From contig JBAYHW010000005.1 in the NCBI GenBank assembly GCA_041665925.1, positions 13,819-77,818 on the forward strand: DNA of 64,000 nt, in the 5' to 3' direction. Of this stretch, positions 234 through 58,815 are shown piece after piece. Numbering within the stretch: the first letter of the stretch is position 1; the number at the start of each line of letters is the position of its first letter. Both the position numbers and the translations under genes were made by a program. The DNA is from Minisyncoccota bacterium. GTDB taxonomy: Bacteria; Patescibacteriota; Minisyncoccia; Phycocordibacterales; UBA9973. The notes beneath the pieces are model-generated. The model ran no database searches. It was given only the letters and a program-made list of their open reading frames with translations, and was not told the DNA's origin.

Positions 234-695
234 ATGAAGAAAATGAATAAAGGTTTTACGTTGATTGAACTTTTGGTGGTCGTTGCTATAATCGGTATTT
301 TGGCGTCAGTTGTTTTGGCTTCCCTAAATACAGCACGAAGTAAGGGCAAGGACGCTTCTGTTCAAGCAAGTATGTCTTCTATGAGGGCACAAGCAGAACT
401 TGGAGTTAGCTCATCTGGTACGTATCTTGCAGATCTTTGTACTGCATCAGGTGTTGGCTCCTTGACTACTTTAATTACTGCAGTGAATGCAAGTACAGCT
501 AATGATGTTGTTTGCGGACAAAATACAGCAGCTGGGGTTGGGCCTACTGCATGGGGCGCATCTGTACAATTGCCAAGCTCTGAGGGAGGTACGGCTTCTT
601 TCTTCTGTACAGACAGTACTGGATTTGCTGGAGTTGTTGGAGCAACCGCAACAGTTACAGCTGGAGCTTCCAGTGGAGACGTAGCTTGTAACTAA
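234..695 (+). CDS. Type IV pilin, probable major pilin (153 aa)
   Basis: N-terminus MKKMNKG|FTLIELLVVVAIIGILASVV has a class III prepilin signal: G at -1, F at +1, E at +5. Cys residues near the C-terminus suggest a disulfide loop. A Shine-Dalgarno GGGGTGA lies upstream, and a strong hairpin lies immediately downstream. Confidence 0.85.
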   Translation: MKKMNKGFTLIELLVVVAIIGILASVVLASLNTARSKGKDASVQASMSSMRAQAELGVSSSGTYLADLCTASGVGSLTTLITAVNASTANDVVCGQNTAAGVGPTAWGASVQLPSSEGGTASFFCTDSTGFAGVVGATATVTAGASSGDVACN

Positions 696-721
696 ACATT
701 TCTAGGAACTCATTGTTTTAC

Positions 722-759
722 ACAGACAAAAACCACCCGTAAAGGTGGTTTTTGTCTGT
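722..759 (+). terminator. Perfect 16-bp stem-loop (ACAGACAAAAACCACC-CGTAAA-GGTGGTTTTTGTCTGT) followed by a T-rich run
   Basis: Seen directly in the sequence. The position right after the first pilin gene is typical for major-pilin stoichiometry control (terminator or attenuator). Confidence 0.7.
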
Positions 760-813
760 GTATTTGGTACAATTAATTAATTAAAAGGCATTATAAAATT
801 AATAGTAAAAGTT

Positions 814-1347
814 ATGAATAAATTAAATATTAAAAAAGGTTTTACCTTGATTGAGCTTTTGGTTGTGGTGGCCATTATTGGTATTTTAGCCACCTTAATT
901 ATGGCTTATTTAGGTGGTGCTAAAAATAAGAGTAGTGATGCAAAGATAATGGCACAAGTCGGACAGATGACTGCTCAGGGATTTTTATATAATGGTGAGA
1001 CAAGTACTGGTACTGTTGTTGGTCCAGTAAACACTGGCATAGCTGGAGCAGCAGCCAATGGTACAGCACCTGCGCAATTATTTAACGCAACAACAACTTC
1101 TTTAAGTAGCTTATATCTTTTAGCTAATGAATTACCAGGAGGTACATATATTTATTATGGTTGGGATGGGGTTGATGTAAATAGTGGGGGGAAGTGGTTT
1201 TTTGCAGCTTCGCTTTCGACTGGAGCATTTTGCAATGACAATAAGGGTACGAAAAAAGTTTTTGTTGGGGCTTCGCCGACGATTCTATCTGATTTTACAA
1301 CTGCATTTCCTAATGCTACGGCTAGCGATGGATATCGTTGTGATTAG
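814..1347 (+). CDS. Type IV pilin-like protein (177 aa), second pilin paralog
   Basis: N-terminus KKG|FTLIELLVVVAIIGILATLI has the prepilin cleavage/methylation motif with E+5. Confidence 0.85.
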   Translation: MNKLNIKKGFTLIELLVVVAIIGILATLIMAYLGGAKNKSSDAKIMAQVGQMTAQGFLYNGETSTGTVVGPVNTGIAGAAANGTAPAQLFNATTTSLSSLYLLANELPGGTYIYYGWDGVDVNSGGKWFFAASLSTGAFCNDNKGTKKVFVGASPTILSDFTTAFPNATASDGYRCD

Positions 1348-1360
1348 TTAAAAGTTAAAT

Positions 1361-2152
1361 ATGATTTCAATCCTTACAATTATCTTTTTCCTTTTTGGGC
1401 TCATTATTGGGAGCTTTCTAAATGTGGTTATATTTAGACTAAATACAGAGAAATCTTTCGGAGGGAGGAGTGGTTGTATGGTTTGTAGGCATCAACTTTC
1501 TTGGTATGAGCTTATTCCTATTTTGAGTTTTGTATTTCTTAGAGGTAGATGTAAAAACTGTAAAACTAAAATATCAATTCAGTATCCACTAGTAGAGCTT
1601 ACGACTGGAATTATCTTTGGAGCTCTTTTTTTAAAGTTTCAGGATGTTTTCTTTTTCAGCAATACAGTTATCTTTAGTTTTACCTATGCGTATTATGCAG
1701 TGATGTTTGCTTTGCTTATAGTTATTTCAGTCTATGACTTGAAACATAAAATAATTCCAGATACCCTGTCTCTCATTTTCGGTATTCTAGCTTTTGTCGG
1801 ACTATTTTTATTTTCTAATTATATTTTCTTCCTCCACACACCTTCACTTCTAGAATTCCTTTCGGGGCTATACATAGCCGTACCGTTTGCTTTGTTTTGG
1901 TTGGTATCTGGGGGGAGGTGGATGGGGCTTGGAGATGCCAAGCTTGCCATAGGGCTCGGGTGGTTGCTAGGGCTCTCTGCTGCTCTGTCGGGGATAGTGG
2001 TTGCTTTTTGGGTCGGAGCTGTCGTCGGGATTATGTTAATTATTTTTTCCAGAAAACACGGAATGAAAAGCGAAATTCCATTTGCCCCATATTTAGTTCT
2101 CGGAGCATTATTAGCCTTTCTTTTTGAGCTAAGTATTTTCCCAATTTTTTAG
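1361..2152 (+). CDS. pilD: Prepilin peptidase (A24 family, PilD/GspO)
   Basis: Polytopic membrane protein carrying the N-terminal tetracysteine zinc motif CMVCRHQLSWYELIPILSFVFLRGRCKNCKTKI, plus conserved A24 core motifs. Confidence 0.85.
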   Translation: MISILTIIFFLFGLIIGSFLNVVIFRLNTEKSFGGRSGCMVCRHQLSWYELIPILSFVFLRGRCKNCKTKISIQYPLVELTTGIIFGALFLKFQDVFFFSNTVIFSFTYAYYAVMFALLIVISVYDLKHKIIPDTLSLIFGILAFVGLFLFSNYIFFLHTPSLLEFLSGLYIAVPFALFWLVSGGRWMGLGDAKLAIGLGWLLGLSAALSGIVVAFWVGAVVGIMLIIFSRKHGMKSEIPFAPYLVLGALLAFLFELSIFPIF

Positions 2153-2159
2153 AGAATAG

Positions 2160-2801
2160 ATGAAGAAATTAAATAAAAAAATAAAGACAAATAGGGGAAT
2201 GACTTATGTAGAGCTAATAGTTGTTCTGTCTATTTTTTCGGTGTTGTCTTCGGTGGCGATATTTAATTACGGAGATTTCCAAGCTAGAGTTGATATTAAA
2301 AATTTAGCGAGTGACATAGCTATAAAAATTGTAGAGGCACAAAAAGCTTCCTTAGGCGGAGCACTACCTTTATCTTTTGCCCAACAATCTACCGATCCCA
2401 ACTGGAAACCATCTTATGGAATTCACATAACATCTAATGCCACTTTAGATATTGCTGGAGCTAACGATAAAAACTTTATATATTTTACTGATATTGATAG
2501 CGATAAACTATTTACGGGCGATGGGCCAAATTGTAATGGAGAATGTTTAGATTATATTTCAATAACCAAAGGAGAATACATAGAAAAAATAGAAAAGGTA
2601 TTAGGAAATGCCTATACTCCAATTGCAAATACAGACGCACTTACCATTACCTTCACAAGACCAGATGCGAGTGCAGTTTTTAGTGATTCATTGGGTATAT
2701 TGTCTGGTTTTGATTATGTGAAAATAACCCTTTCCTCGGCCAACCAGCGAGTCAAAGCATCCATAAGAATATATCCATCAGGGAGAATACAGATAGATTA
2801 A
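2160..2801 (+). CDS. Prepilin-type minor pilin / pseudopilin (213 aa)
   Basis: N-terminus NRG|MTYVELIVVLSIFSVLSSVAIF has E+5 and a hydrophobic alpha1 helix. Confidence 0.75.
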   Translation: MKKLNKKIKTNRGMTYVELIVVLSIFSVLSSVAIFNYGDFQARVDIKNLASDIAIKIVEAQKASLGGALPLSFAQQSTDPNWKPSYGIHITSNATLDIAGANDKNFIYFTDIDSDKLFTGDGPNCNGECLDYISITKGEYIEKIEKVLGNAYTPIANTDALTITFTRPDASAVFSDSLGILSGFDYVKITLSSANQRVKASIRIYPSGRIQID

Positions 2802-2803
2802 TT

Positions 2804-3394
2804 ATGAAGAAAATTTTTCCAAAACTGAACAAAAAACAAAGCGAGGGCTATACAATAATTGAAACCATGATAGCGGTTTCTCTTTTTGTGATCATAGTTA
2901 CAGTAGGAATGAATGCACTTTTGAATGCTAATGTACTCCACAATAAATCTCAAGACATGAGATCTATTATCGACAGTTTAAGTTTTGCAATGGAAGATAT
3001 ATCGAAAAATTTAAGAACTGGGTATGATTATCACTGTATCGACGACGGGGACCTTGCACTTATAGATTCCCATAGTTGTATTACGGGAACTGGCATTTCT
3101 TTTAAATCTTCGTCGGGGTTGCAGTTTATATACTATTTAGAGAGTGGAGCTTTTGGGGATAATATTTTTAAATCAGTTGCTGGAGACCCAGCAGTTCAGC
3201 TACTTCCAGATGAGGTTGTCATAGATTCAGTCGATATTTTTACGGTATCTGGGGCGCAGTCTACAACAGCACCAACTCCTGATTTTAATCAACCTTTCGT
3301 CACTATCAGACTCGAGGGTCACATAGACTATAAAGACACCTCTACGCCGTTTTCTTTACAAACTTCAGTTTCTCAAAGAGGAATAGATATTTAA
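2804..3394 (+). CDS. Prepilin-type minor pilin (196 aa)
   Basis: N-terminus SEG|YTIIETMIAVSLFVIIVTVGMNALL has E+5. Confidence 0.75.
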   Translation: MKKIFPKLNKKQSEGYTIIETMIAVSLFVIIVTVGMNALLNANVLHNKSQDMRSIIDSLSFAMEDISKNLRTGYDYHCIDDGDLALIDSHSCITGTGISFKSSSGLQFIYYLESGAFGDNIFKSVAGDPAVQLLPDEVVIDSVDIFTVSGAQSTTAPTPDFNQPFVTIRLEGHIDYKDTSTPFSLQTSVSQRGIDI

Positions 3395-3395
3395 A

Positions 3396-3842
3396 ATGTT
3401 AAAAATTTTTTCAAAAAAAAATAAAGGCGGATTTACTCTAGTGGAAACACTTGTGGCTATTTCAATTTTTACAGTCTCTATTCTCGGGCTTATGTCTATT
3501 TTATCTTCTGGAATTTCTAGTACTACTTATGCTAAAAATAAAATGATTGCCGGGTATTTAGCACAAGAAGGAATAGAGTATGTGAGAAATATGCGCGATA
3601 CTGCCGCACTCACGGCAGCAGATGCTGACACTGGGTGGGCTAACTTTAAAACTAGCGTTGCTCCACCTGCGTTACCTCCTGTATTAAATAGCCCAGATAC
3701 TTATTTTACTCGCATCTTATCAGTGGAAACCACTACTAACCCGGACGAACTCAAGGTTACCTGTGTTGTTTCTTGGACTCAACCTTCCGGTCCTCAAAGC
3801 GTAACCTTGTCAGAGAATTTATTTAATTGGATACAGATATGA
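3396..3842 (+). CDS. Prepilin-type minor pilin, PilV-like (148 aa)
   Basis: N-terminus NKGG|FTLVETLVAISIFTVSILGLMSIL. The stop TGA at 3840-3842 overlaps the next gene's ATG. Confidence 0.75.
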   Translation: MLKIFSKKNKGGFTLVETLVAISIFTVSILGLMSILSSGISSTTYAKNKMIAGYLAQEGIEYVRNMRDTAALTAADADTGWANFKTSVAPPALPPVLNSPDTYFTRILSVETTTNPDELKVTCVVSWTQPSGPQSVTLSENLFNWIQI

Positions 3843-19219: not shown

Positions 19220-21028
19220 ATGAAATATTCTTACAACTGGCTGAAATGGTATATTCCAGATGCTCCAGAACCAGAAAAATTGGCGGATATTTTTACCTAC
19301 CACTTAGCCGAAGTTGAGAATTTAGAAAAATTACCGGATGGGGATACTGTTTTTGATATTAAAATTCTTCCAAATCGTGCACATGACCTACTTTCACATC
19401 AAGGCCTGGCACGAGAACTTTCTTCGCTTTTAAATATTGCATTTGTTGATCCGACGCCGAAATACAAAATCCCTGAATCTAAACCAAGTGATTTAAAAAT
19501 TGAAATAGAGAGCGAGAAATGCCGAAGATATTCTGGAAGAATAATTCGTAATGTAAAAGTGGGCCCAAGTCCAGAGTGGGTAGTAAAACATCTAGAATCT
19601 ATCGGGCAGAGAAGTATAAATAATATGGTGGATGCGGCGAATCTAGTGATGTTTGATTGCGGACAGCCGACGCACATTTTTGATTTAGATAAAGTACAAG
19701 AAAAGCTAGTGATTAGACAAGCCAAGGAGGGAGAAGAATTAACTACCTTAGATAATAAGGAATGTAAATTCAAATCGGCAGATATGGTCATCGCTGATGC
19801 AGAGAGGGCTCTCGCAGTTGCGGGGATTAAGGGAGGGAAGATAGCAGAGGTAGATAATAATACTAAAAACATTATTCTTGAGGTAGCGAATTTTGATCCG
19901 ACAGCTGTGCGCAAAACTGCACAATCATTAAATATATTTACAGATGCTAGAAAGCGTTTTGAAAATGACTTGTCACCAGAGCTTGTGTCGTACGCCATGC
20001 GAGAACTTTCGGCGCTTATTTTAGAAATGTGCCCTGAGGCTATTTTTGAAGATGTGGTGGATGTGTATCCAAAAAAGCAAGAACAACAAAAATTGAAATT
20101 CAGAACAGAGAAAATTTCAAAAGTTTTAGGGCTAGAAGTTTCCGTGGAAGAGATTAAGGATATTTTAAAAAGATACAATTTTTCATATACAGAAAAAGGG
20201 GGAGAATTTGAAATAGAGGTGCCCCACATGCGCTTGGATTTAAATATCGAAGAAGATATGGCTGAAGAAATAGGGCGAGTAATAGGCTACGATAAACTAA
20301 AAGGAGTGGTATCACATGTGGATTTCAAACCTAAGCAAAATGAGCTGTATACGAAAATAGTTTGGGCTAGGAATAAACTTAAAGAAGAGGGTTATAGCGA
20401 AAGCATGACCACAAGCTTTGCCAATAAGGGAGAAGTGGAGGTTATGGCTTCAGCTTCTGATAAAAATTTCTTACGCACGAATTTAACAGATGGACTAAAA
20501 GAAAGTATTAAATTAAATCAGACCAATGCTCCGCTTTTGGGGTTAGAAAAGATAAAAGTTTTTGAAATTGGGACAATATTTAAAAAGAGTGGGGAAGAAA
20601 TGCATATTGCTTACGGAGATAAAAAAGAGATAAAAGAAATAACATTAGATGAATATACTTCACAGATGGAGAAAAATTCTGTCGCTTTACCCGCAAGCGG
20701 GCTCCGACACGAGCAAAATTTTTCTCCATCTGCTTCACCAGTTTTTAAAATGTGGTCATTGTTTCCATTTATTGCGCGCGATGTTGCAGTGTGGGTGTCG
20801 GATACAGTCGAAAGTAATCAAGTTCTTAAAGTAATAAAGGAGAATGCTGGTGACATGGTAGTTCGAGGGCCGGAGCTTTTTGATGAATTTAAAAAAGATG
20901 GTAAAGTTTCCTATGCGTTTAGAATTGTTTTTCAGTCTTATGACAGAACTCTCACGGACACAGAAATAAATGAAGTGATGAACAAAATCTCTGAAAAAAT
21001 CAAAGCTAATGGTTGGGAAGTGAGGTAA
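19220..21028 (+). CDS. pheT: Phenylalanyl-tRNA synthetase beta subunit (reduced, 602 aa)
   Basis: B3/B4 and B5 domain signatures and a C-terminal FDX-ACB-like region. It immediately follows pheS. Confidence 0.85.
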   Translation: MKYSYNWLKWYIPDAPEPEKLADIFTYHLAEVENLEKLPDGDTVFDIKILPNRAHDLLSHQGLARELSSLLNIAFVDPTPKYKIPESKPSDLKIEIESEKCRRYSGRIIRNVKVGPSPEWVVKHLESIGQRSINNMVDAANLVMFDCGQPTHIFDLDKVQEKLVIRQAKEGEELTTLDNKECKFKSADMVIADAERALAVAGIKGGKIAEVDNNTKNIILEVANFDPTAVRKTAQSLNIFTDARKRFENDLSPELVSYAMRELSALILEMCPEAIFEDVVDVYPKKQEQQKLKFRTEKISKVLGLEVSVEEIKDILKRYNFSYTEKGGEFEIEVPHMRLDLNIEEDMAEEIGRVIGYDKLKGVVSHVDFKPKQNELYTKIVWARNKLKEEGYSESMTTSFANKGEVEVMASASDKNFLRTNLTDGLKESIKLNQTNAPLLGLEKIKVFEIGTIFKKSGEEMHIAYGDKKEIKEITLDEYTSQMEKNSVALPASGLRHEQNFSPSASPVFKMWSLFPFIARDVAVWVSDTVESNQVLKVIKENAGDMVVRGPELFDEFKKDGKVSYAFRIVFQSYDRTLTDTEINEVMNKISEKIKANGWEVR

Positions 21029-29671: not shown

Positions 29672-29716
29672 AAATAGAGTGTTAATCTTTACCTTGGGTA
29701 GCAGGAAGGAGAAACG

Positions 29717-29974
29717 ATGCGAAGTCGCCCCTTTGAGGAGACGATCCTCGAGACGATAAGCGAGATGTGCATTCCCCAGGTCGAACTGGTGGCCAATCTG
29801 ATACTTAGGACCACCATCAACAACAACCACGATGAGATTGCCGTCGCCTGGCGGGAGCGATGCCTGGAACTGGGACTCCGCGACCACATGGATGTGGTCG
29901 CGGCGCTCGAGTTTAAAAGGCGAAGTATCCAGCCCGCCTACAACGCTGTTTTCTCTGGCATTTTCGATCAGTAG
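29717..29974 (+). CDS. GC-rich hypothetical protein (85 aa), MRSRPFEETILETISEMCIPQVELVANLILRTT...
   Basis: Strong SD GGAAGGAGA 4 nt upstream of the ATG. Followed by the hairpin AGCCCG...CGGGCT plus a T-rich tract. About 55% GC. No family recognised. Confidence 0.45.
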   Translation: MRSRPFEETILETISEMCIPQVELVANLILRTTINNNHDEIAVAWRERCLELGLRDHMDVVAALEFKRRSIQPAYNAVFSGIFDQ

Positions 29975-30034
29975 TAGCAGTGAGCCCGTGTGAGGAGTCC
30001 GCGTACTATACGCTACCCCGCGGGCTTTCTCATT

Positions 30035-30202
30035 TTATTTCTTCCAATCTTTAACCTGCACGCCACCTTGGATTTTAGTGACCACGAGCTTCTGCCGTTC
30101 TTTCCAGCCGAGTGCTCGCACGACTTCGATCGGCAGAGTCAAATAATATGACCCGCCCGACTGCTGTAGATTTCTAATTTTTGCATCTTTTATTTTTCTC
30201 AT
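30035..30202 (-). CDS. AbrB/MazE/SpoVT-fold (swapped-hairpin) small DNA-binding protein, 55 aa
   Basis: The minus-strand translation MRKIKDAKIRNLQQSGGSYYLTLPIEVVRALGWKERQKLVVTKIQGGVQVKDWKK shows the characteristic pattern: a G-rich turn followed by a LTIPKEIREKLGL-like strand-helix. Not in the ORF track because it is under 60 aa. Confidence 0.6.
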   Translation of the reverse strand: MRKIKDAKIRNLQQSGGSYYLTLPIEVVRALGWKERQKLVVTKIQGGVQVKDWKK

Positions 30203-30276
30203 CCCGTTAGAAATTAAGCTAATAAATAAATCCTGTTAGCTTGACGGAAATCTAAAGATTTCCTATTTCTAACGGG
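30203..30276 (-). repeat. Inverted-repeat cassette, copy 1: CCCGTTAGAAAT...ATTTCTAACGGG, flanked by ATGAG on both sides and containing a 22-aa mini-ORF (30214-30282)
   Basis: 12-bp terminal inverted repeats seen in the sequence. A second copy is at 33062-33126. Confidence 0.7.
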
Positions 30277-30290
30277 ACTCATACATGTAA

Positions 30291-30338
30291 GTATATACCA
30301 ATCCCTGGGGATATCCCTAGGGAAGTCCCTAGGGATTC
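30291..30338. promoter_or_regulatory. Operator-like repeat block: GTATATACCAATCCCTGGGGATATCCCTAGGGAAGTCCCTAGGGATTC, carrying tandem TCCCTAGGGA palindromes. Direct repeat of 31060-31096.
   Basis: It lies in the divergent region between the AbrB-like gene on the minus strand and the two small GC-rich ORFs on the plus strand. Confidence 0.6.
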
Positions 30339-30404
30339 GCAAGAATCCTATATCTGGACAATAGTAATATTTAATGTTAGAAAATACTTGAAGGAGGACT
30401 CGAT

Positions 30405-30611
30405 ATGAATTATCGAGCAAAGATCAAGCGGGCCAGAGCCCGCCGGTACCACGAACGTTGGAAGGCAGCGCGACGCGCTGGCCTTCCCAAGGGCCCCAGC
30501 GGGACCACCAAGTCGAATCTGCTTCGGCCGAGCAAGCCGGTACGTCGGGCACACCAGAAGGAGGGGGACGGGTGGTGCCCCGAATGCTGGTCTTTCATGT
30601 GCCGGGCGTGA
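30405..30611 (+). CDS. GC-rich small basic protein (68 aa), Arg/Lys-rich, with C-terminal CPECWSFMC
   Basis: Strong SD GAAGGAGGAC 5 nt upstream of the ATG. A candidate -35/-10 pair (TGGACA ... TAGAAA) upstream. Confidence 0.45.
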   Translation: MNYRAKIKRARARRYHERWKAARRAGLPKGPSGTTKSNLLRPSKPVRRAHQKEGDGWCPECWSFMCRA

Positions 30612-30635
30612 GCGGCCTGGGGCTGTCAATCAAAA

Positions 30636-30908
30636 ATGCACAAGGAGGAGGTTACCGTGTTCGTAATTGAGCATCTCGAGCAGTTTTGCCAAGACCACCC
30701 CGAGTTCTTCGGCGATAACACGCGTGAGTGTGTTATCGCCGAAGCCAAGAACCGGGCGAACGAGGAAGGAGTTCTCATGTCCGCTGAAGCCGAGAGCCTT
30801 CTCGGCCCGACTCTCGCGTTCCAGTTCTTCTCGGAGATGACTAGCACGAGCAAGCATCTCCAGATCAGCATGGAAGTTGCGGAGCGTCTGCGGAAGAGCG
30901 TTCGGTAA
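30636..30908 (+). CDS. GC-rich small acidic protein (84-90 aa). The probable start is the GTG at 30657, which is preceded by AAGGAGGAGG.
   Basis: An SD sits 5 nt before the in-frame GTG. The ORF is followed by the CCCCG...CGGGG hairpin and, further downstream, the terminator at 31019-31056. Confidence 0.4.
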   Translation: MHKEEVTVFVIEHLEQFCQDHPEFFGDNTRECVIAEAKNRANEEGVLMSAEAESLLGPTLAFQFFSEMTSTSKHLQISMEVAERLRKSVR

Positions 30909-31018
30909 TCCTGGTTAGCACAACCCCGTCGACGACAGCGAAGTCGGCGGGGTGGGGCTGGTGGGTTCTTTAAAATCGTGTTAGTAAAACACGAACCTTA
31001 AAAGGGTTCGTTGTATCG

Positions 31019-31056
31019 AGCCCTGCAAGGAAAAGAACTCTTGCGGGGCTTTTCTA
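31019..31056 (+). terminator. Intrinsic terminator AGCCCTGCAAG-loop-CTTGCGGGGCT followed by TTTTCT
   Basis: Stem plus T-run at the right edge of the GC-rich island. Confidence 0.7.
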
Positions 31057-31059
31057 ATT

Positions 31060-31116
31060 GGTATATACCAATCACTAGGGAAGTCCCTAGGGACTGATCT
31101 ACGCCATGGCGTAGAT
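31060..31116. repeat. Second copy of the operator-like repeat (TGGTATATACCAATCACTAGGGAAGTCCCTAGGGACT) followed by a perfect 20-bp palindrome ATCTACGCCATGGCGTAGAT
   Basis: TGGTATATACCA (12 bp) and AGTCCCTAGGGACT (14 bp) are perfect palindromes. The 20-bp palindrome is at 31097-31116. Confidence 0.7.
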
Positions 31117-31141
31117 TTCTTAGTATATTATATATGATAGA

Positions 31142-33061
31142 TTAAGGAAGTTTTAATTTTTCCTCTTTGGCAGGGATTATTTTATTTAGTTGGAAAACAG
31201 AGTTAAGTTGGGTTTGATTTTTCTTTACTGATATAGAGCCGTCGCGGTTTAACTTTATTTCTAGAAGCATACCTTGCATCGTAGCTTTACTCCATGATTG
31301 GTCAAACACAAAGTTCCCGAGAGAGTAGGCAATGAAACTCGCGCACGAACTTTGAGTGCAATCTTTCCTGCTGTATACTTCTGTATCTTCAACTACGTGC
31401 GGATGATGTCCGATAACTATTTTTGCCCCCGCATCCACGGCTTTATGGGCGAGATATTCCTGACGAGCATTGTGCCTTGGTTTATATTCATCGCCGAAAT
31501 GGAAAGAAACGACGAGATAATCTACTTGCTTTGCAGCATTTTGAACTATCTCATTAAAACGAGGGTTGCTAGCGAGGAGTACACCTGCTTTTTCTTCTCC
31601 GGCTTCCATCCACGAAGGGCCGACGTCAGAAAACCCAAGGTAACCTATTTTCATCCCATATTTTTCTATGATGACTGGAGTCTCAGCCTCAGCGCGGTTA
31701 TAGCCTCCGCCAGTATAATGTATTTCATTTTCTTTCAAGCGCCCTAGAGTGTCAACGTATGCAGTGCGCCCCCAGTCTCCCACGTGATTATTCGCAAGAG
31801 ATAAAACACCCACTCCGGCCCCTTTGAGCGCGGGGATTACGCCGGGGTCCATTCTAAATGAATATAAATTTTTCTGGTCAACTCCTTGATCTGACGCGGT
31901 GCCCTCTAAATTGGCGAAAGCGATGTCTGACTTTTTAAATATATCTACTTTTTCAAAGATAGCTGAGTAATCATTGTTGAAATTTTTTACCACCGAAGAC
32001 CTCACGCCACGGTCGAGCATTATGTCTCCACCGAAAGCTAGCATTACGAAAGATGGATCTTTTATTTCTGGTAGACCAACTTTTTCTTTAACCCAGTCGG
32101 TGTTAGCGTCAGCTTTCCCTCCATAATAAATATATTTTTTTAAATATTTTACAATTGATTCCACATCTTTCTTCCTATCAGTACTCTGAAGTAGGGTGAT
32201 GGCTATAGGGCGAGTGCCAGTTTCACTAAGAGGAAGATTGAAAAGAGATACTACTGTTTGCTTGGCAGGGTCGGTGTAGCCACTTTTACCTCCTGTGTAT
32301 CCGTCTTGGCCTAAAAATTGGCTGATGTTGGACCAGCTGTGCTTTTTGTTTGTGTAGCTTCTTTTTGTGGTAATGCCCACTAGGTCTGGTTTTTCTTTCG
32401 TTAAGTATCCGGTTAATTTAAAAATATCAGAGACAGTAGATTTATTGTTTATAGAAAGTCCGCTCGGATCGGCAAATGAAGTGTTTGGCATTTTTAGAAT
32501 CTCTGCCACCTCATTCATTTTTGAAATAAAGGAATCTCTACCGAAATGTTCGGCGATGGCTTCAGCCGCGTCGTTGCTAGATTCTAAAAGGAGCGGGTAG
32601 AGCAGGTCGGTAGTTTTTATTTTTTCCCCAAGTTTTAATTCTCCATTGGAGCCAGAGGTAGCTAGAGCTTTTTTGCTGACTTGTACTGTGTCATCTGCGT
32701 TGGTTATTTCTGTGGCTACTAGAGCTGTCATCAGCTTGGAGACCGAAGCGATAGGGAAGGCCACTTCTTGATTTTTTGAGAGAATGACTTCACCAGTATT
32801 CAAATCTCCGACAAGATATGCTTTCGCGGAGACCTTCGGTCCGCCGTTCGTGTCTTTATTGACATAAAAATATTGAGATTTTATCTCTTCGCGGTCTTTA
32901 GGAATAAGCTGAACTACTGAAGCGAGATTGTTTGATGATTGCCGGAAGTCGTTAATATTAAGGGCAGAAAATACTGACGATGTAAAAAATACTCCAATTA
33001 ATATTGAAAATGTGGTCCACAGTATTACATTTATTTTTTTTCTTTTTTGAATAGGACTCAT
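31142..33061 (-). CDS. Fusion protein: N-terminal D-alanyl-D-alanine carboxypeptidase (S11/PBP5-like) plus C-terminal CapA/PGA-type metallophosphoesterase (639 aa)
   Basis: Signal-anchor. The SxxK motif ASVSKLMTALV, the SxN motif ESSNDAAEA and the KTG motif GGKSGYT. Then the CapA motifs FANLEG, GYNRAE, VSFHFGDEY, GHHPHV and GNFVFDQ. Confidence 0.8.
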   Translation of the reverse strand: MSPIQKRKKINVILWTTFSILIGVFFTSSVFSALNINDFRQSSNNLASVVQLIPKDREEIKSQYFYVNKDTNGGPKVSAKAYLVGDLNTGEVILSKNQEVAFPIASVSKLMTALVATEITNADDTVQVSKKALATSGSNGELKLGEKIKTTDLLYPLLLESSNDAAEAIAEHFGRDSFISKMNEVAEILKMPNTSFADPSGLSINNKSTVSDIFKLTGYLTKEKPDLVGITTKRSYTNKKHSWSNISQFLGQDGYTGGKSGYTDPAKQTVVSLFNLPLSETGTRPIAITLLQSTDRKKDVESIVKYLKKYIYYGGKADANTDWVKEKVGLPEIKDPSFVMLAFGGDIMLDRGVRSSVVKNFNNDYSAIFEKVDIFKKSDIAFANLEGTASDQGVDQKNLYSFRMDPGVIPALKGAGVGVLSLANNHVGDWGRTAYVDTLGRLKENEIHYTGGGYNRAEAETPVIIEKYGMKIGYLGFSDVGPSWMEAGEEKAGVLLASNPRFNEIVQNAAKQVDYLVVSFHFGDEYKPRHNARQEYLAHKAVDAGAKIVIGHHPHVVEDTEVYSRKDCTQSSCASFIAYSLGNFVFDQSWSKATMQGMLLEIKLNRDGSISVKKNQTQLNSVFQLNKIIPAKEEKLKLP

Positions 33062-33132
33062 CCCGTTAGAAGTTTTAATAATTTATAATTTATTTTATTA
33101 GTCTCGATAGTTGAACTTCTAACGGGACTCAT
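33058..33132 (-). CDS. 24-aa mini-ORF (MSPVRSSTIETNKINYKLLKLLTG) inside cassette copy 2, translationally coupled on both sides
   Basis: Its ATG overlaps the rnr stop (ATATGA), and its TGA overlaps the ATG of the downstream 639-aa gene (GGATGAGT). Confidence 0.4.
   Translation of the reverse strand: MSPVRSSTIETNKINYKLLKLLTG
33062..33126 (-). repeat. Inverted-repeat cassette, copy 2: CCCGTTAGAAGT...ACTTCTAACGGG, flanked by ATGAGT direct repeats
   Basis: The same termini as copy 1, with a compensatory A/T to G/C change at IR position 11 and unrelated AT-rich interiors. Confidence 0.7.
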
Positions 33133-35087
33133 ATTAAAACGTAATCAATAGTTTTTCTCTCTAAGTCTACACCTTTTACTTTTATTTTTACTTTATCACC
33201 TAGTCTGTATCTTTTTTTTTTCTTTTGCCCGACTAGTTCTAGTTTCTTTTCATTGAAGACATAGAAATCATCATTCATATCTCGCATTCTTACTAGGCCT
33301 TCACACTTCGTCTCTACTTCTTCTACATACATACCCCATTCTGTCATTCCACTAATTACTCCACTAAATTTTTCACCCATACGCTTAGACATATATTCTA
33401 CTTGTTTGTATTTGATAGATGCACGCTCGGCGTCGGATGCGCGTTTCTCTTGCTCTGAGGCGACTTCAGACATTTTTTCATATTCAAATAACTTTGCTTG
33501 AGCTACTTTTTTCCCCACGAGGTGATTTGCGAGGAGCCTGTGGATGATTATGTCGGGGTAGCGCCTGATAGGGGAAGTGAAGTGAGTGTAATGTTCGAAA
33601 GCGAGTCCATAATGCCCGATATTTTTTGTAGAATAGATGGCTTTAGCCATAGACCTTATCACCGCGCGGTTGACTGTATCTTCTTCCGCTTTTCCCGCTA
33701 AATTCTCTAGAAGTTTATTTATTTCAAATGTAGGAATGACTCCATCCCGAAGAGTTACCTTGTGCCCCAAACTACGCAAGAAGAATGCTAAGTCAGTCAT
33801 CTTTTCTTTACTGGGCAGGTCATGAACACGATAAATTGAAACACTCTCTTCTTTCCCTTTTTCCTGCCCGACCGAGTGGCCTCGGCCGTTCGGGCGGGTC
33901 GGAGATAAAATCTCAGCTACTTTTTTATTGGCTAACAACATAAATTCTTCAATAAGTTTGTTGGAGTCGCCACGTTCTTTTTTGATAACTTTTATTGGGG
34001 TGCCGTTTTTGTCTAAGACGAACTTTACTTCTTCTTGATCTAGAGATATTGCGCCTTTGGCAAATCTTTCTTTAGTTAATTTTTTAGCTAAATTGTTTAA
34101 GATAGCAAGCTCATGGTGTAGGGGAGTGCCTGGTTTTTTTATAGAAAGCTCCGCTTCTTCATAAGTAAACCTTTTTTGAGAATGAATCACTGTCCGACCG
34201 AACCAAGCGCTTTTAACTTTGGCATTTTTATCTATTACGAACACAGCGCTCATGGTCAGCCGGTCTTTGTTGGGCACTAGACTGCATAAGTCATTCGAAA
34301 GAATTTCTGGAAGCATGGGGATGGTTCTGTCTACTAGATATACTGAAGTGCCTCGTTCGCGAGCTTCCACGTCTAAGGCACTGCTGACTTTCACATAATG
34401 CGAAACGTCAGCTATGTGGATGCCTACCTCGTATTCTTCTTTTCCTATTTCTTTAAAAGATATTGCATCATCGAAATCCTTTGCATCTGAAGGGTCAATA
34501 GTAAAGGTTAAAACTTTACGGAAATCTTTACGCCCAGCATAATCGCTCTCTCTTATGCCTTCGTGTTTAATTTTTCTCGCTTCTTCTTCTACTTTATTTG
34601 GAAGTTCGGAATCAAAACCTTTTTCCATAGCTATGGCGTGCATTTCGGTGTCATTGTCTCCAGGGTAGCCTAAAACTTTAACCACTTTTCCTAAAGGAGC
34701 TTTCTCTCTTTCTTTCCAAGATGTGATTTCTGCGAAAACCTTCTGCCCAACCTTTGCTCCATTTAGAAATTCTTTTGGAATTAAAATATCCGTATACATT
34801 TTCGTATCATCTGGCTTCAAAAAGAAAATAGATTTCTCTAATTCTAGAATCCCAGCGAAACGCATCTTGGCGCGAGAAATTATTTTCGTCACTTCAGCTG
34901 TCTGCCTACCTTTTCCCTTCGGATGGAGGAGTATCTCCACCGTGTCGCCATGCATAGCGGTGTTCAAGTGCTTGAAGTCAATTTCTGGGTCTTGCCCCTT
35001 ATTTTTACTGTCTCCAAGAGCCACATATCCTGTGCCTTTGGCCGAGATGGAGATAGTGCCCCTTAGCTTATTAGTGTGTTGTTTCAT
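33129..35087 (-). CDS. rnr: Ribonuclease R / RNase II family 3'-5' exoribonuclease
   Basis: The RNB catalytic domain (HYGLAFEHYTHFTSPIRRYPDIIIHRLL), cold-shock-like N-terminal domains and a C-terminal S1 domain. Confidence 0.88.
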   Translation of the reverse strand: MKQHTNKLRGTISISAKGTGYVALGDSKNKGQDPEIDFKHLNTAMHGDTVEILLHPKGKGRQTAEVTKIISRAKMRFAGILELEKSIFFLKPDDTKMYTDILIPKEFLNGAKVGQKVFAEITSWKEREKAPLGKVVKVLGYPGDNDTEMHAIAMEKGFDSELPNKVEEEARKIKHEGIRESDYAGRKDFRKVLTFTIDPSDAKDFDDAISFKEIGKEEYEVGIHIADVSHYVKVSSALDVEARERGTSVYLVDRTIPMLPEILSNDLCSLVPNKDRLTMSAVFVIDKNAKVKSAWFGRTVIHSQKRFTYEEAELSIKKPGTPLHHELAILNNLAKKLTKERFAKGAISLDQEEVKFVLDKNGTPIKVIKKERGDSNKLIEEFMLLANKKVAEILSPTRPNGRGHSVGQEKGKEESVSIYRVHDLPSKEKMTDLAFFLRSLGHKVTLRDGVIPTFEINKLLENLAGKAEEDTVNRAVIRSMAKAIYSTKNIGHYGLAFEHYTHFTSPIRRYPDIIIHRLLANHLVGKKVAQAKLFEYEKMSEVASEQEKRASDAERASIKYKQVEYMSKRMGEKFSGVISGMTEWGMYVEEVETKCEGLVRMRDMNDDFYVFNEKKLELVGQKKKKRYRLGDKVKIKVKGVDLERKTIDYVLI

Positions 35088-37030: not shown

Positions 37031-37039
37031 TTTCTTTAA

Positions 37040-37117
37040 AGAGCGAATACAAAAGTTTTCTGATGGGCAATACAGTAGCCTCCCATTGCGAAAACCTTTG
37101 TATTCGCTCTTTTTGTT
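37040..37117 (+). terminator. Long extended hairpin (15/16-bp outer stem AGAGCGAATACAAAAG/CCTTTGTATTCGCTCT with nested inner stems) followed by TTTTGTT. Terminator or attenuator between the KH gene and trmD.
   Basis: Seen in the sequence. It overlaps the trmD -10 region. Confidence 0.55.
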
Positions 37118-57525: not shown

Positions 57526-58815
57526 ATGTTTTTCAAAATAGAAAAAAAATTAAAGCGGGGTTTAGGACGAGTTGGAGTTTTAAAAACTCCGCATGGAGAA
57601 ATACATACCCCTGCTTTTGTGGCTGTGGGCACTAAGGCTACCGTGAAGTCGCTTAACCCTGAGCAGGTACGAGAGACTGGTACAGAAGTAGTTCTTGGTA
57701 ATACTTACCATTTATATCTTCAGCCGGGAGATGAAATAGTTCGGGATGCGGGAGGTATAGGAAAATTTATGAACTGGCCAGGGCCGACGATGACTGACTC
57801 GGGAGGTTTTCAGGTTTTTTCACTGGGAGTTGCCTATGGAAAAGATATCTCAAAGGTAACAAAAATTACAGATCCATCGCTTTTAATTCCAGAACGTTTT
57901 GATGATTCGGACGCCCCAAGGCTCGCGAAAATAGGACAAGATGGAGTTTCGTTTAAGTCACATCTTGATGGCTCAATTCACTACATTACTCCAGAAAAAT
58001 CAATTCAGATTCAGCACAACCTCGGCGCAGATATTATTTTTGCTTTTGATGAATGCACTAGCCCGGCGGAAGATTTGCGTTATCAGGAAGAAGCCTTAGA
58101 GCGTACGCATCGTTGGGCAGAGCGAAGTTTGAAAGAACACAAGAAGCTGGGGGAGGAAAAATCTTTCTCTGCGGGGTCGCTGTCTGTGCTTGATAGCACA
58201 GCGCTGCCTCTCGGCTCGTCAGCCTGCGAGACACCCCACAAAGAAAATTTTTCCTCCCCAGCTTTGTTTGGAATTGTGCAAGGTGGACGAGATGAAAATT
58301 TGAGAAAAAAATCAGCGGAGTTTATTGGGAGTTTAGATTTTGATGGTTTTGGTATTGGTGGATCTTTCGCTAAAGAAGATATGTCTACGGCCGTGAAATG
58401 GGTAAATGAAATTCTTCCGGAAGAAAAGCCACGTCATCTGCTCGGCATAGGGGAGCCGGAAGATTTATTTATGGGGATAGAAAATGGTGTAGATCTTTTT
58501 GATTGTGTTTTACCCACTCGCTTGGGTAGAAATGGGACTCTGTATACCAAAAGGGGCAAAATAATAATAATGAATACGAAATTCCGAAATGATTTTTCTC
58601 CGGTTGAAGAAGACTGTGCGTGCTATTCGTGTAAGAATTATACAAAGAGCTATATAGCTCACCTTTTTCACGGCAAAGAAATGCTAGCGGGAACTTTAGC
58701 TTCTATTCATAATCTATATTTTATCGTGAATTTAGTGAATAAAATAAGACAATCAATTTTAGATGATAAATTCTTTGAATTTAAAGAGAAATTCTTGAAA
58801 GAGTATACTAGATAA
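57526..58815 (+). CDS. tgt: Queuine tRNA-ribosyltransferase (tRNA-guanine transglycosylase) with an internal insertion
   Basis: TIM-barrel motifs (GNTYHL, FAFDEC, LLGIGEPEDL) and the zinc site CxCxxC...H (CACYSCKNY). Confidence 0.88.
   Translation: MFFKIEKKLKRGLGRVGVLKTPHGEIHTPAFVAVGTKATVKSLNPEQVRETGTEVVLGNTYHLYLQPGDEIVRDAGGIGKFMNWPGPTMTDSGGFQVFSLGVAYGKDISKVTKITDPSLLIPERFDDSDAPRLAKIGQDGVSFKSHLDGSIHYITPEKSIQIQHNLGADIIFAFDECTSPAEDLRYQEEALERTHRWAERSLKEHKKLGEEKSFSAGSLSVLDSTALPLGSSACETPHKENFSSPALFGIVQGGRDENLRKKSAEFIGSLDFDGFGIGGSFAKEDMSTAVKWVNEILPEEKPRHLLGIGEPEDLFMGIENGVDLFDCVLPTRLGRNGTLYTKRGKIIIMNTKFRNDFSPVEEDCACYSCKNYTKSYIAHLFHGKEMLAGTLASIHNLYFIVNLVNKIRQSILDDKFFEFKEKFLKEYTR

What the first reader, a model, noticed from the sequence alone, without database searches (positions are those of the whole stretch)
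30200..33135. Repeated inverted-repeat cassette at two start codons with compensatory covariation and a doubly coupled mini-ORF
Two copies (30200-30282 and 33059-33132, both on the minus strand) share ATGAGT-CCCGTTAGAA[A/G]T ... A[T/C]TTCTAACGGG-ATGAG but have unrelated AT-rich interiors. Position 11 of the inverted repeat differs between copies while pairing is preserved in each (A..T versus G..C), the signature of selection on a stem. The outer ATGAG(T) direct repeats look like a target-site duplication at the start codon. In copy 2 the upstream ATG opens a 24-aa ORF whose start overlaps the rnr stop (ATATGA) and whose stop overlaps the start of the DacA-CapA gene (GGATGAGT). The main AUG therefore sits immediately 3' of the stem, with only a weak GGGA as SD. 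Possible explanations: a MITE-like element with ATGAG target preference; or an mRNA hairpin with a uORF that gates downstream initiation (translation of the uORF melts the stem).
Basis: seen in the sequence. Interest (0 to 1): 0.7.

Follow-up and report, generated by a model that had tools for sequence, protein, structure and literature searches.

The report
Tiny hairpin transposon rebuilding start codons
The two repeats are copies of a 52-82 bp mobile DNA hairpin found in many uncultured bacterial phyla; it lands on start and stop codons, or in frame inside essential genes, and its own end bases restore the codon it splits, so the host gene survives.

Summary
Both cassettes are copies of a miniature inverted-repeat element, at 30202-30277 and 33061-33127 on the minus strand.

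- **Structure.** The ends are Y-CCCGTTAGAA...TTCTAACGGG-R. They form a 13-14 bp stem and are flanked by a 4-bp target duplication, TGAG in both copies.
- **Distribution.** An exact-arm scan of species genomes hit its 120-locus limit. Hits span Patescibacteria, Planctomycetota, Omnitrophota, Desulfobacterota, Nitrospirota and others.
- **Mobility.** Relatives keep the empty rnr/dacA-capA junction, an ATGA stop/start overlap. Two Nomurabacteria contigs that are 99.9% identical differ only by one copy inside rsmH.
- **Covariation.** Three stem positions vary by compensatory double changes, and pairing stops sharply after position 12.
- **Placement.** Of 124 copies, 38 sit on a start codon, where the terminal purine plus TG of the duplication rebuilds ATG or GTG. 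Another 29 lie in frame inside housekeeping genes (DnaE, SecA, UvrA, GlyRS, FolD); 28 of these 29 add a multiple of three bases.
- **The mini-ORF.** The doubly coupled 24-codon ORF exists, but comparable ORFs are not conserved across the family.
- **Open points.** I found no transposase, no Rfam family and no paper describing this element.

Verdict: a new MITE family that behaves like Rickettsia palindromic elements. The riboregulator reading is not.

The parts
33061..33127 (-). Copy 2 of the hairpin element: 67 bp, ends T...A, 14-bp perfect arms at 33061-33074 and 33114-33127, with an AT-rich unstructured interior.
   Evidence: (I22). A same-subfamily copy sits at a different gene in L004 3113-3176.
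33128..33131 (-). Upstream copy of the 4-bp target duplication of copy 2 (TGAG on the minus strand). It contains the RNase R stop TGA (33131..33129) and, together with A33132, the original ATG.
   Evidence: The empty sites in L121/L123/L124 show an ATGA stop/start overlap.
33057..33060 (-). Downstream copy of the target duplication of copy 2 (TGAG). The element's last base A33061 plus TG rebuilds the DacA-CapA start codon at 33061..33059.
33058..33132 (-). A 24-codon ORF (MSPVRSSTIETNKINYKLLKLLTG) running through copy 2. Its start overlaps the rnr stop and its stop overlaps the dacA-capA start.
   Evidence: One search lists the ORF; the translation is read. It is not a conserved family feature.
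30202..30277 (-). Copy 1 of the hairpin element: 76 bp, ends T...A, a 14-bp outer stem plus two interior hairpins, giving a Y shape.
   Evidence: A near-identical interior occurs in L107 5018-5092 at the start of a RarA/MgsA gene with a different duplication, TGGA.
30278..30281 (-). Upstream copy of the target duplication of copy 1 (TGAG). With A30282 it forms the original ATG.
30198..30201 (-). Downstream copy of the target duplication of copy 1 (TGAG). The element's last base A30202 plus TG gives the start codon of the 55-aa ORF.
30214..30282 (-). A 22-codon ORF opened by the upstream ATG of copy 1. It ends at a TAA inside the element, 11 nt before the rebuilt ATG.
   Evidence: Read; one search gives rel -14 for the first base of the stop.
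33129..35087 (-). RNase R gene, immediately upstream of copy 2. Its ORF is unaltered by the insertion.
   Evidence: RNB, CSD2, OB_RNB, S1. Synteny in relatives is shown.
31142..33061 (-). Gene for a D-Ala-D-Ala carboxypeptidase (S11) + CapA/PGA_cap fusion protein, immediately downstream of copy 2.
   Evidence: P0001, 100% identical, from a Candidatus Paceibacterota MAG.
30035..30202 (-). A 55-aa AbrB/MazE-type ORF whose start codon carries copy 1.
   Evidence: MazE_antitoxin, E 5.8e-5, 23.4 bits, just below the curated cut-off of 24.7.

Best explanation
**What it is.** Both cassettes are copies of a non-autonomous DNA transposon (MITE) of 52-82 bp. Its ends are Y-CCCGTTA(GAA)RY...RY(TTC)TAACGGG-R.

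**How it moves (inferred).** An enzyme supplied in trans, not identified here, makes a 4-bp staggered cut at Y-N-N-R, preferably R|TNNA|Y. Repair then duplicates those four bases.

**Why it survives in gene-dense genomes.**
- It ends in a purine. When it lands in (A/G)TGA..., that purine plus TG of the duplication rebuilds ATG or GTG directly after the element.
- When the duplicated bases are TGAN or TAAN, the upstream gene keeps its stop codon.
- Both arms are open in two of three frames in either orientation. Many lineages add a multiple of three bases, so a copy inside a gene is simply translated, usually as ...PVR[NSK]...SNG...

**In this window.**
- Copy 2 entered the ATGA stop/start overlap of rnr and dacA-capA. 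Both ORFs were left intact.
- Copy 1 entered the start codon of a small AbrB/MazE-like gene.

**Shown versus inferred.**
- Shown: insertion, the duplication, insertion polymorphism, placement statistics and stem covariation.
- Inferred: a DDE-type cut-and-paste mechanism; translation of in-frame copies; and, for copy 2, that the 24-codon ORF relays termination-reinitiation from rnr to dacA-capA.
For: My own estimate of chance hits is about 17, from 596 Gb times 31 gap lengths divided by 4^20.

**Target duplication.**
- The two central flank positions are identical in 69% and 73% of 124 copies. Chance would give about 31% and 26%.
- L-5=C goes with R2=C in 18 of 26 cases. L-2=G goes with R5=G in 18 of 30.
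- L-1 is a pyrimidine in 122 of 124 copies and R1 a purine in 118 of 124. L-6 is a purine in only 82 of 124. The outermost pair therefore belongs to the element.

**Empty sites.**
- Relatives L121, L123 and L124 have the ATGA overlap and no element.
- L004 (filled) and L130 (empty) are 99.9% identical over 2.2 kb and differ by the 69-nt insert.
- RsmH proteins P0123-P0125 lack exactly the 25 residues that P0121 and P0122 carry.

**Same subfamily at non-homologous genes.** The window copy 1 type recurs in L107, and the window copy 2 type in L004.

**Placement.**
- 52 of 124 copies abut ATG or GTG. Of these, 40 open an ORF of at least 50 codons, which is 77% against 30% for control [AG]TG sites.
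- 25 of 124 have an upstream ORF of at least 100 codons that ends at the element border.
- 29 of 124 lie inside long ORFs, and 28 of those 29 add 3n bases.
- The downstream frame starts at R1 in 58 of 74 cases.

**Hosts of in-frame copies.** DnaE, SecA, UvrA, UvrC, GatB, HolB, LeuD, ProB, Xth and PrmC. FolD and GlyRS align to solved structures with the insert as extra residues.
Against: **No mobilising enzyme found.**
- There is no 0.3-5 kb copy bounded by the same ends in about 1 Mb of fetched loci.
- There is no transposase among genes that recur near copies.
- There is none in the 64-kb window.

**The stem behaves unlike typical transposase binding sites.**
- Stem positions 11 and 12 and the outer pair covary, with a sharp end to pairing.
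- Variants at core positions 8 and 10 are also compensated.
- A subfamily has covarying interior hairpins.
- Transposases that read double-stranded ends are not expected to impose this. It hints that a folded single strand is recognised.

**Distribution.** Identical arms in at least 8 phyla with unrelated interiors is unusual for a MITE family.

**Data limits.** Taxon labels come from MAG record titles and I did not check them. The empty site of copy 1 could not be tested.
Confidence: 0.78

Rival explanations
1. The element is mobile, but it moves as a folded single strand. A structure-specific enzyme (an HUH/Y1 transposase as for IS200/IS605 and REPINs, or a tyrosine recombinase as for integron attC sites) would recognise the 13-bp hairpin or Y-shaped fold, rather than a DDE transposase recognising double-stranded ends.
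For: - Compensatory double changes occur at three stem positions, with at most 10 unpaired cells of 123 at each. None of 500 shuffles reached the observed covariation.
- Pairing stops at position 12/13 in most copies.
- Core variants such as GAG/CTC, ACAA/TTGT and AAAT/ATTT are compensated.
- A subfamily keeps two interior hairpins despite complete sequence turnover.
- No DDE partner was found.
Against: - By my knowledge of these systems, they do not create target duplications. This element has a 4-bp duplication of variable sequence.
- The arm order is GTTAGAA...TTCTAAC, the inverse of attC R''(RYYYAAC)...R'(GTTRRRY), as read directly.
- Copies are not arranged as cassette arrays at gene 3' ends. 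They sit on start codons, in both gene orientations, and inside housekeeping ORFs.
Confidence: 0.12
2. The hairpin is a host cis-regulatory RNA: a stem next to the AUG, plus an upstream ORF whose translation opens the stem and gates or couples initiation of the downstream gene.
For: - In copy 2 the mini-ORF is coupled at both ends.
- The A and T of the rebuilt AUG pair with the opposite flank.
- Relatives have no SD motif (GGAG) nearer than about 26 nt upstream of the dacA-capA start, so that gene probably depends on coupling to rnr (sequence).
- Copies at gene starts show a 23:1 orientation bias, against 17:10 elsewhere.
- GTG-type copies often carry an in-frame internal ATG: 7 of 13, against 4 of 27 for ATG-type copies.
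Against: - The element occurs at unrelated genes, at stop codons, between genes and inside ORFs.
- Close relatives express the same gene pair without it.
- The upstream ORF ends at +1, at -7, inside the interior, or reads through, with no preferred outcome.
- Insert length at starts is evenly spread over the three classes mod 3.
- There is no Rfam match.
Confidence: 0.06
3. In-frame copies are removed after transcription, by RNA splicing or ribosomal bypass between the matching flanks, so the host proteins stay native.
For: Direct repeats flank a stable hairpin inside essential genes. This resembles the take-off/landing arrangement of phage T4 gene 60 and yeast mitochondrial byp elements (from my knowledge of those systems).
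Against: - 28 of 29 intragenic copies add 3n bases and are free of stop codons. Removal would not require either property.
- The same frame, PVR...SNG, is used in 24 of 29.
- At gene starts, where translation through the element is not needed, lengths are unconstrained.
Confidence: 0.03
4. The arms are a static protein-binding or DNA-uptake palindrome, like paired Neisseria DUS, and not a mobile insertion.
For: - The 10-mer resembles the Neisseria DUS GCCGTCTGAA in 7 of 10 positions (recalled from memory; a lead only).
- Type IV pilus genes recur near copies in 7 loci, and pilin genes lie in the window.
Against: - Arms almost never occur singly.
- Each pair is bounded by a duplication of variable sequence.
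- Filled and empty alleles exist at 99.9% flank identity.
Confidence: 0.01

Closest known systems
Rickettsia palindromic elements (RPE)
   Same: Both are small palindromic repeats that insert in frame into unrelated housekeeping genes and are translated as extra peptide segments. Here 29 of 124 copies are intragenic and 28 of those 29 add 3n bases. For RPEs this is described in the review PMC10969869.
   Different: - This element is far smaller: 52-82 bp, against about 100-150 bp.
- It has a clear 4-bp target duplication and a defined 13-bp terminal stem.
- It is found in many phyla rather than one genus.
- About a third of copies sit exactly on start codons and rebuild them.
- I did not test sequence relatedness to RPEs.
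Bacterial MITEs such as Correia/NEMIS (Neisseria), ERIC and MITEAba12
   Same: All have terminal inverted repeats, a short target duplication, no coding capacity, many copies and insertion polymorphism between strains. They can be co-transcribed with neighbouring genes and fold as RNA hairpins.
   Different: - No parent insertion sequence was found.
- The stem positions covary.
- The arms are identical across phyla while the interiors are unrelated.
- The end bases regenerate start codons.
Integron attC sites
   Same: Both are about 60-130 nt imperfect palindromes with conserved outer boxes, a variable centre, structure kept by covariation, and sometimes a three-way junction. The box sequence GTTAGAA/TTCTAAC matches GTTRRRY/RYYYAAC in 6 of 7 positions.
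   Different: - The order of the boxes is inverted.
- A target duplication is present.
- Copies lie at the 5' ends of genes, in both orientations, and inside housekeeping genes, rather than in cassette arrays beside an integrase.
REP/REPIN elements mobilised by RAYT transposases
   Same: Both have two inverted conserved arms around a less conserved spacer and form a hairpin. The hairpin is thought to be the unit recognised.
   Different: By my knowledge, REPINs are extragenic, species-specific, very high in copy number and lack target duplications. I did not search for a RAYT gene.
piggyBac / IS1380-type ends (a lead only)
   Same: Both have a 4-bp duplication beginning with T and ending with A, and ends starting CCC. 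piggyBac reads TTAA + CCCTAGAAAG; this element reads TNNA + YCCCGTTAGAAA. The piggyBac sequence is recalled from memory.
   Different: No such transposase was found or tested. The resemblance covers only a few bases.

Membership tests
MITE (miniature inverted-repeat transposable element) | Short, with no transposase gene | tested here: met
   The two window copies are 76 and 67 bp. Copies captured by the N{30,60} scan pattern are 52-82 bp, and longer copies with 90-110-nt gaps also occur.
MITE (miniature inverted-repeat transposable element) | Terminal inverted repeats | tested here: met
   The terminal repeat is 13-14 bp.
MITE (miniature inverted-repeat transposable element) | Target-site duplication of fixed length | tested here: met
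   The duplication is 4 bp (Y-N-N-R), supported by flank statistics and by filled/empty comparisons.
MITE (miniature inverted-repeat transposable element) | Multiple copies at non-homologous sites, with insertion polymorphism | tested here: met
   At least 120 loci carry it. The same subfamily sits at different genes. Two contigs at 99.9% identity differ by one copy.
MITE (miniature inverted-repeat transposable element) | A cognate autonomous element with the same ends that encodes the transposase | tested here: inconclusive
   None was found in about 1 Mb of loci or in the window. Whole genomes could not be scanned.
Rickettsia palindromic elements | In-frame, translated insertion in unrelated genes | tested here: met
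   Translation itself is inferred from the 3n lengths and open frames.
Rickettsia palindromic elements | Sequence membership in an RPE family; Rickettsia host | not tested
   No RPE sequences were compared. The hosts here are Patescibacteria, Planctomycetota, Omnitrophota and others.
Integron attC site | Box order R''(RYYYAAC) at the 5' side and R'(GTTRRRY) at the 3' side | tested here: not met
   The order here is GTTAGAA at 5' and TTCTAAC at 3' on either strand.
Integron attC site | Sits at the 3' end of cassettes in arrays, with no target duplication | tested here: not met
   Copies lie on start codons, in both gene orientations, and inside housekeeping ORFs. A 4-bp duplication is present.
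REP/REPIN | Extragenic, with no target duplication | tested here: not met
   29 of 124 copies are intragenic and a duplication is present.
REP/REPIN | Associated RAYT (Y1 transposase) gene in the genome | not testable with these tools
   Only 8-kb neighbourhoods were available. No Y1 transposase appeared among recurrent neighbours.
Cis-regulatory leader RNA / uORF-controlled hairpin | Constant association with one gene family and position | tested here: not met
   Hosts are unrelated, and copies also lie inside ORFs and at stop codons.
Cis-regulatory leader RNA / uORF-controlled hairpin | Conserved uORF geometry | tested here: not met
   The uORF end varies. Lengths mod 3 at gene starts are 13/14/11.
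Cis-regulatory leader RNA / uORF-controlled hairpin | Match to a curated RNA family | tested here: not met
   There is no Rfam hit in the window region at E<=10, nor at gathering score in 18 loci.
Programmed translational bypass (T4 gene 60 / byp type) | The insert is not translated, so its length and stop codons are unconstrained | tested here: not met
   28 of 29 intragenic copies add 3n bases and are stop-free.
DNA uptake sequence | The motif is over-represented as single copies genome-wide | tested here: not met
   Exact arms occur mostly as pairs; the few isolated arms lie near chance expectation or at contig ends.

The most novel reading that the evidence does not exclude
The element may be more than an ordinary MITE in two ways.

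**Mobility.** The enzyme that moves it may read a folded 13-bp hairpin or Y-shaped single strand. This would explain why the helix is kept by compensatory changes in at least eight phyla. Yet the enzyme still makes a 4-bp staggered target cut, and that combination matches no transposition system I know of.

**Fit to translation.** The element's sequence may have been shaped to be compatible with translation.
- Its ends rebuild start and stop codons.
- Its arms are open in two frames in both orientations.
- Its lineages are 3n long.
- Some copies bring their own SD and ATG.
- Its orientation at gene starts is selected 23:1.

On this reading it acts as a portable initiation or coupling cassette in streamlined genomes.
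Probability: 0.2. Interest if true: 0.85.

Novelty: new member of a known kind. Interest (0 to 1): 0.62.

Why it matters
**A second case of coding-compatible selfish DNA.** The RPE-like phenomenon, selfish palindromes translated inside essential proteins, is not confined to Rickettsia. It appears in Patescibacteria, Planctomycetota, Omnitrophota and other uncultured phyla. Here it comes with a clear target duplication and with strain-level filled and empty alleles. That makes the mobilisation mechanism experimentally approachable.

**Practical consequences for annotation.**
- Copies duplicate start codons and create short upstream ORFs.
- They lengthen conserved proteins by 19-28 residues.
- They may break assemblies; a few copies lie close to contig ends.
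- Gene callers and orthology pipelines for these genomes will therefore mis-set starts.

**Horizontal exchange.** Identical 10-13 bp ends in co-occurring but unrelated phyla would be a compact marker of horizontal exchange. This includes possible exchange between episymbiotic CPR bacteria and other community members.

**Insertion tolerance.** The set of tolerated insertion points in DnaE, SecA, UvrA, GlyRS, FolD and RsmH is a natural map of permissive loops.

Tried and rejected
**RNA families and literature.**
- Rfam gave only noise in window 29900-33400 at E<=10. At gathering score in 18 loci it gave only tRNA, rRNA and one group I intron.
- Full-text search for either 10-mer returned only primer coincidences.
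- Searches on MITEs with CPR, on in-frame palindromic elements, on Patescibacteria with hairpin and TSD, on MITEs with start codons, and on RPEs with these phyla found nothing describing this element. The 2024 prokaryotic MITE review mentions none of these phyla.

**Rejected identities.**
- Integron attC: rejected on box order, on the target duplication and on gene context.
- DNA-uptake sequence: rejected because arms are almost always paired, bounded by duplications, and polymorphic between strains.
- A 6-bp (ATGAGT-type) duplication: rejected because L-1 and R1 are fixed as Y and R, while L-6 and R6 are not.

**Search for a mobilising enzyme.**
- Long pairs of arms with matching duplications gave only pairs of separate small copies.
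- Clustering all ORFs of at least 200 aa across loci, followed by Pfam, gave housekeeping genes only.
- Pfam on 46 window ORFs found no transposase or integrase.

**Other negative results.**
- Viral contigs gave 5 hits only.
- The metagenome scan for the exact predicted empty site of copy 2 gave 0 hits, as did the scan for the copy-1 host gene.
- An exact-protein look-up of the 55-aa ORF found nothing on record.
- A sigma-70 consensus scan predicted no promoter inside either window copy.
- The test for selection on the relay uORF showed no clear signal.


Full report
**1.

- On the minus strand, copy 1 reads ATGAG-TCCCGTTAGAAATA...TATTTCTAACGGGA-TGAG (30282..30198). Copy 2 reads ATGAG-TCCCGTTAGAAGTT...AACTTCTAACGGGA-TGAGT (33132..33056).
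- The 10-mer CCCGTTAGAA occurs exactly four times in the 64-kb window, only as these two inverted pairs. The arms are 14 nt and perfectly complementary (I22).
- Both fold more stably than shuffled controls: -33.2 kcal/mol with z -6.7, and -21.3 kcal/mol with z -3.1.
- Pfam confirms the neighbouring genes. RNase R is 33129-35087. An S11 D-Ala-D-Ala carboxypeptidase + PGA_cap fusion is 31142-33061. A 55-aa AbrB/MazE-like ORF is 30035-30202, scoring just under the curated cut-off.
- By its best protein match, the window comes from a Candidatus Paceibacterota (Nomurabacteria-like) MAG (P0001).

**2. It is a large, cross-phylum family.**

I estimate about 17 chance hits for a 596-Gb collection.
- By record titles, 53 loci are Patescibacteria (many classes), 35 Planctomycetota and 10 Omnitrophota. 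The rest are Desulfobacterota, Nitrospirota/Thermodesulfovibrionia, WOR-3, KSB1, Ratteibacteria and two 'Gammaproteobacteria' MAGs.
- Viral contigs hold only five copies.
- Interiors are mostly unrelated between copies, but subfamilies exist. L107 carries a near-identical relative of window copy 1, at the start of a RarA/MgsA gene with duplication TGGA. L004 carries a relative of copy 2 at another gene.

**3. Anatomy.**

- In 124 copies with usable flanks, the four bases L-5..L-2 repeat as R2..R5. The two central positions match in 69% and 73% of copies, against about 31% and 26% by chance. Rare bases co-occur at the outer positions: C with C in 18 of 26, and G with G in 18 of 30.
- The base just outside CCC is a pyrimidine in 122 of 124 copies. 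The base after GGG is a purine in 118 of 124. The next flank bases (L-6, R6) are not so constrained.
- The element is therefore Y-CCCG...CGGG-R with a 4-bp duplication of consensus Y-N-N-R, mostly T-N-N-A, in an R...Y context. In the window, both duplications are TGAG.
- A formal pair count shows three variable stem positions that change on both sides:
  - outer pair: C-G 71, U-A 41, 9 unpaired;
  - position 11: A-U 73, G-C 36, 8 unpaired;
  - position 12: U-A 74, C-G 20, G-C 9, A-U 3, 10 unpaired.
- None of 500 shuffles reached the observed covariation. Positions 13-15 are mostly unpaired.
- The ten core pairs were fixed by the search pattern. Even so, fetched loci contain variants whose core changes are compensated, each with its own duplication: GAG/CTC, ACAA/TTGT and AAAT/ATTT.
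- About a tenth of copies, including window copy 1, have two interior hairpins whose sequences differ completely between copies. This gives a Y shape.

**4. It is an insertion.**

- Four relatives sharing 72-75% protein identity and the same synteny were examined. The gene order is NusB-NUDIX, RNase III, SMC, a variable spot, DacA-CapA, RNase R, S16, KH, TrmD. Three of them have the RNase R stop overlapping the DacA-CapA start (ATGA) with no element. The fourth, L122, has a separate stop two bases before the start, also with no element.
- Removing the element and one TGAG from the window gives gttttaatATGAGTCCTATTC. This is colinear with L123 (gttttagtATGAGCCCTATTCCC) and L121 (gttttaatATGAATCCCATCCC).
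- Independently, an ENA contig (L130) is 99.9% identical to L004 over 2.2 kb. It lacks the 69-nt insert in rsmH.
- At the protein level, P0123-P0125 lack exactly the 25 residues DPVRSRPLEHES.TITLGRPASNGI that P0121 and P0122 carry.

**5. Where copies survive.**

| Class | Count | Key numbers |
|---|---|---|
| Abut ATG or GTG on one side | 52 of 124 | 40 open an ORF of >=50 codons (77% vs 30% for control [AG]TG sites) |
| Upstream ORF of >=100 codons ends at the border | 25 of 124 | stop is the first three bases of the duplication (TGA 6, TAA 4), or the TAG inside the arm (9) |
| Inside long ORFs | 29 of 124 | 28 add 3n bases; 24 read ...PVR[NSK]...SNG... |

- ATGA stop/start overlaps like the window's were hit at least six times.
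- The downstream reading frame begins at the element's last base in 58 of 74 cases.
- Hosts of in-frame copies are housekeeping genes: DnaE, SecA, UvrA, UvrC, GatB, HolB, LeuD, ProB, Xth and PrmC, plus RsmH.
- FolD and GlyRS carry inserts that are extra residues relative to solved structures.
- At gene starts, length mod 3 is unconstrained: 13/14/11.
- The pattern fits purifying selection on random-ish insertions into R|YNNR|Y sites. The arms carry a stop (TAG) in only one frame. The target consensus fits (RTN)(NAY) codon pairs, which by my rough codon-frequency estimate explains much of the phase bias.

**6. Consequences for the two window copies.**

- Neither host ORF is damaged. RNase R keeps its TGA. 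DacA-CapA and the AbrB-like gene keep ATGAG..., because the element's terminal A plus TG of the duplication restores the codon.
- In copy 2, the old ATG now opens a 24-codon ORF ending in a TGA that overlaps the rebuilt ATG.
  - In relatives the nearest SD motif (GGAG) lies about 26 nt upstream of this start, so the gene probably depends on coupling to rnr. A termination-reinitiation relay through the mini-ORF is therefore plausible.
  - This is inference for one copy. Across the family the upstream ORF ends at +1 (3 cases), at the TAA of the 3' arm (6 cases), inside the interior (about 13 cases), or reads through (6 cases).
- In copy 1, the upstream ORF stops 11 nt before the rebuilt ATG.
- No sigma-70-like promoter is predicted inside either copy.

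**7. Hints of more than neutrality.**

- At gene starts, the interior has a polarity marker (more GGG than CCC) in the gene's sense orientation in 23 copies, against 1 in the antisense orientation. For polar copies elsewhere, the duplication orientation splits about 17:10.
- Copies that rebuild GTG often contain an in-frame ATG 15-36 nt upstream: 7 of 13, against 4 of 27 for ATG-type copies. Two of these have a clear SD.
- The T...A-ended type, which rebuilds ATG, is almost confined to Patescibacteria.

**8. Mechanism and rivals.**

- The best-supported account is a non-autonomous transposon moved in trans by an enzyme making 4-bp staggered cuts.
- The main gap is the enzyme. I found no long copy, no transposase among recurrent neighbours, and none in the window.
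- The helix covariation, the sharp end of the stem and the Y-shaped subfamily suggest that a folded single strand is recognised. This keeps a structure-specific mobilisation model alive, although the known systems of that kind leave no duplication.
- A dedicated riboregulator, RNA or ribosomal removal of in-frame copies, and a static uptake or binding palindrome are each contradicted by specific tests. These are set out under the rival explanations and membership tests.

**9. Comparison and novelty.**

- It works like Rickettsia palindromic elements (in-frame, translated selfish palindromes) and like bacterial MITEs such as Correia elements.
- It meets four of five MITE criteria. The fifth, a parent element, is unresolved.
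- It fails the defining tests for attC, REPIN, bypass elements and uptake sequences.
- Rfam has no model for it. The held literature does not contain its arm sequence or a description.
- I file it as a new member of a known kind. It has unusual traits: cross-phylum identical ends, stem covariation and codon-rebuilding termini.

**10. Caveats.**

- The ten core stem pairs were fixed by the search pattern.
- The genome scan was truncated, so copy numbers per genome and the taxon spread are lower bounds and may be order-biased.
- Taxon labels are those of MAG records.
- Translation of in-frame copies and any regulatory effect are inferred, not observed.

Noticed in passing
window 20663-20732: A second, unrelated hairpin insertion: 70 bp, 19-nt arms CAGATGGAGAAAAATTCTG, flanked by a 5-nt direct repeat CTTCA. 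The total added is 75 nt (3n), in frame inside the PheT gene (19220-21028; B3_4/B5/FDX-ACB domains). It reads ...QMEKNS...EQNFSPS....
   Followed up: partly
window 58144-58264: A 121-bp imperfect palindrome with 35-nt arms inside the tRNA-guanine transglycosylase gene (57526-58815). The Pfam TGT match is split into two stretches. It reads KLGEEKSF...KENFSSPAL.
   Followed up: partly
window 37038-37112: A 75-bp hairpin with 23-nt, 96% complementary arms, lying between the KH-domain gene and TrmD.
   Followed up: no
window 29690-31100: A GC-rich (50-69%) 1.4-kb island in a window that is otherwise 33-45% GC, at a spot that varies between relatives. It carries small ORFs with strong SDs, the AbrB/MazE-like gene, several terminator-like hairpins, and a direct repeat GGTATATACCAATC..CT.GGGA..AGTCCCTAGGGA at 30288-30335 and 31062-31098 containing TCCCTAGGGA palindromes. 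This is probably horizontally acquired DNA with its own operator sites.
   Followed up: partly
alignment A1 (RsmH homologues); L131 501-1463: Many Paceibacteria RsmH proteins carry a different 22-25-residue insert (for example KNFFETAPSETKGQGTHTFLKNS) at the same site as the L004 element. In L131 its DNA is an imperfect palindrome, AAGAATTTTTTTGAAAC...GTTTCTTAAAAACTCTT. The site looks like a hot spot, or these are decayed older insertions.
   Followed up: partly
L023 6901-6976, L038 687-752, L075 2509-2572, L041 22-98, L063 6549-6625, L059 3397-3459: Six copies have a consensus-like left flank (ACTTGT or ACCTGT) but no matching right duplication. The right flank is directly the ATG of a gene. 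Recombination between two copies, or a deletion after insertion, are possible causes.
   Followed up: no
L007 2597-2740, L040 4621-4788, L096 1966-2133, L102 894-1053, L024 1139-1312: Nested or composite copies, in which one element lies within the loop of another, sometimes of the CCCGTTAGAG variant.
   Followed up: no
L035, L042, L068, L097, L098, L099 and one more locus: Type IV pilus / type II secretion ATPase (T2SSE) genes recur within 8 kb of copies, and PilC-like (T2SSF) genes in three loci (L042, L097, L120). The window itself starts with pilin and prepilin-peptidase genes (234-3842). This may be coincidence.
   Followed up: no
L050 3154-3454: A group I intron match above the Rfam gathering score, in a Parcubacteria contig.
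   Followed up: no
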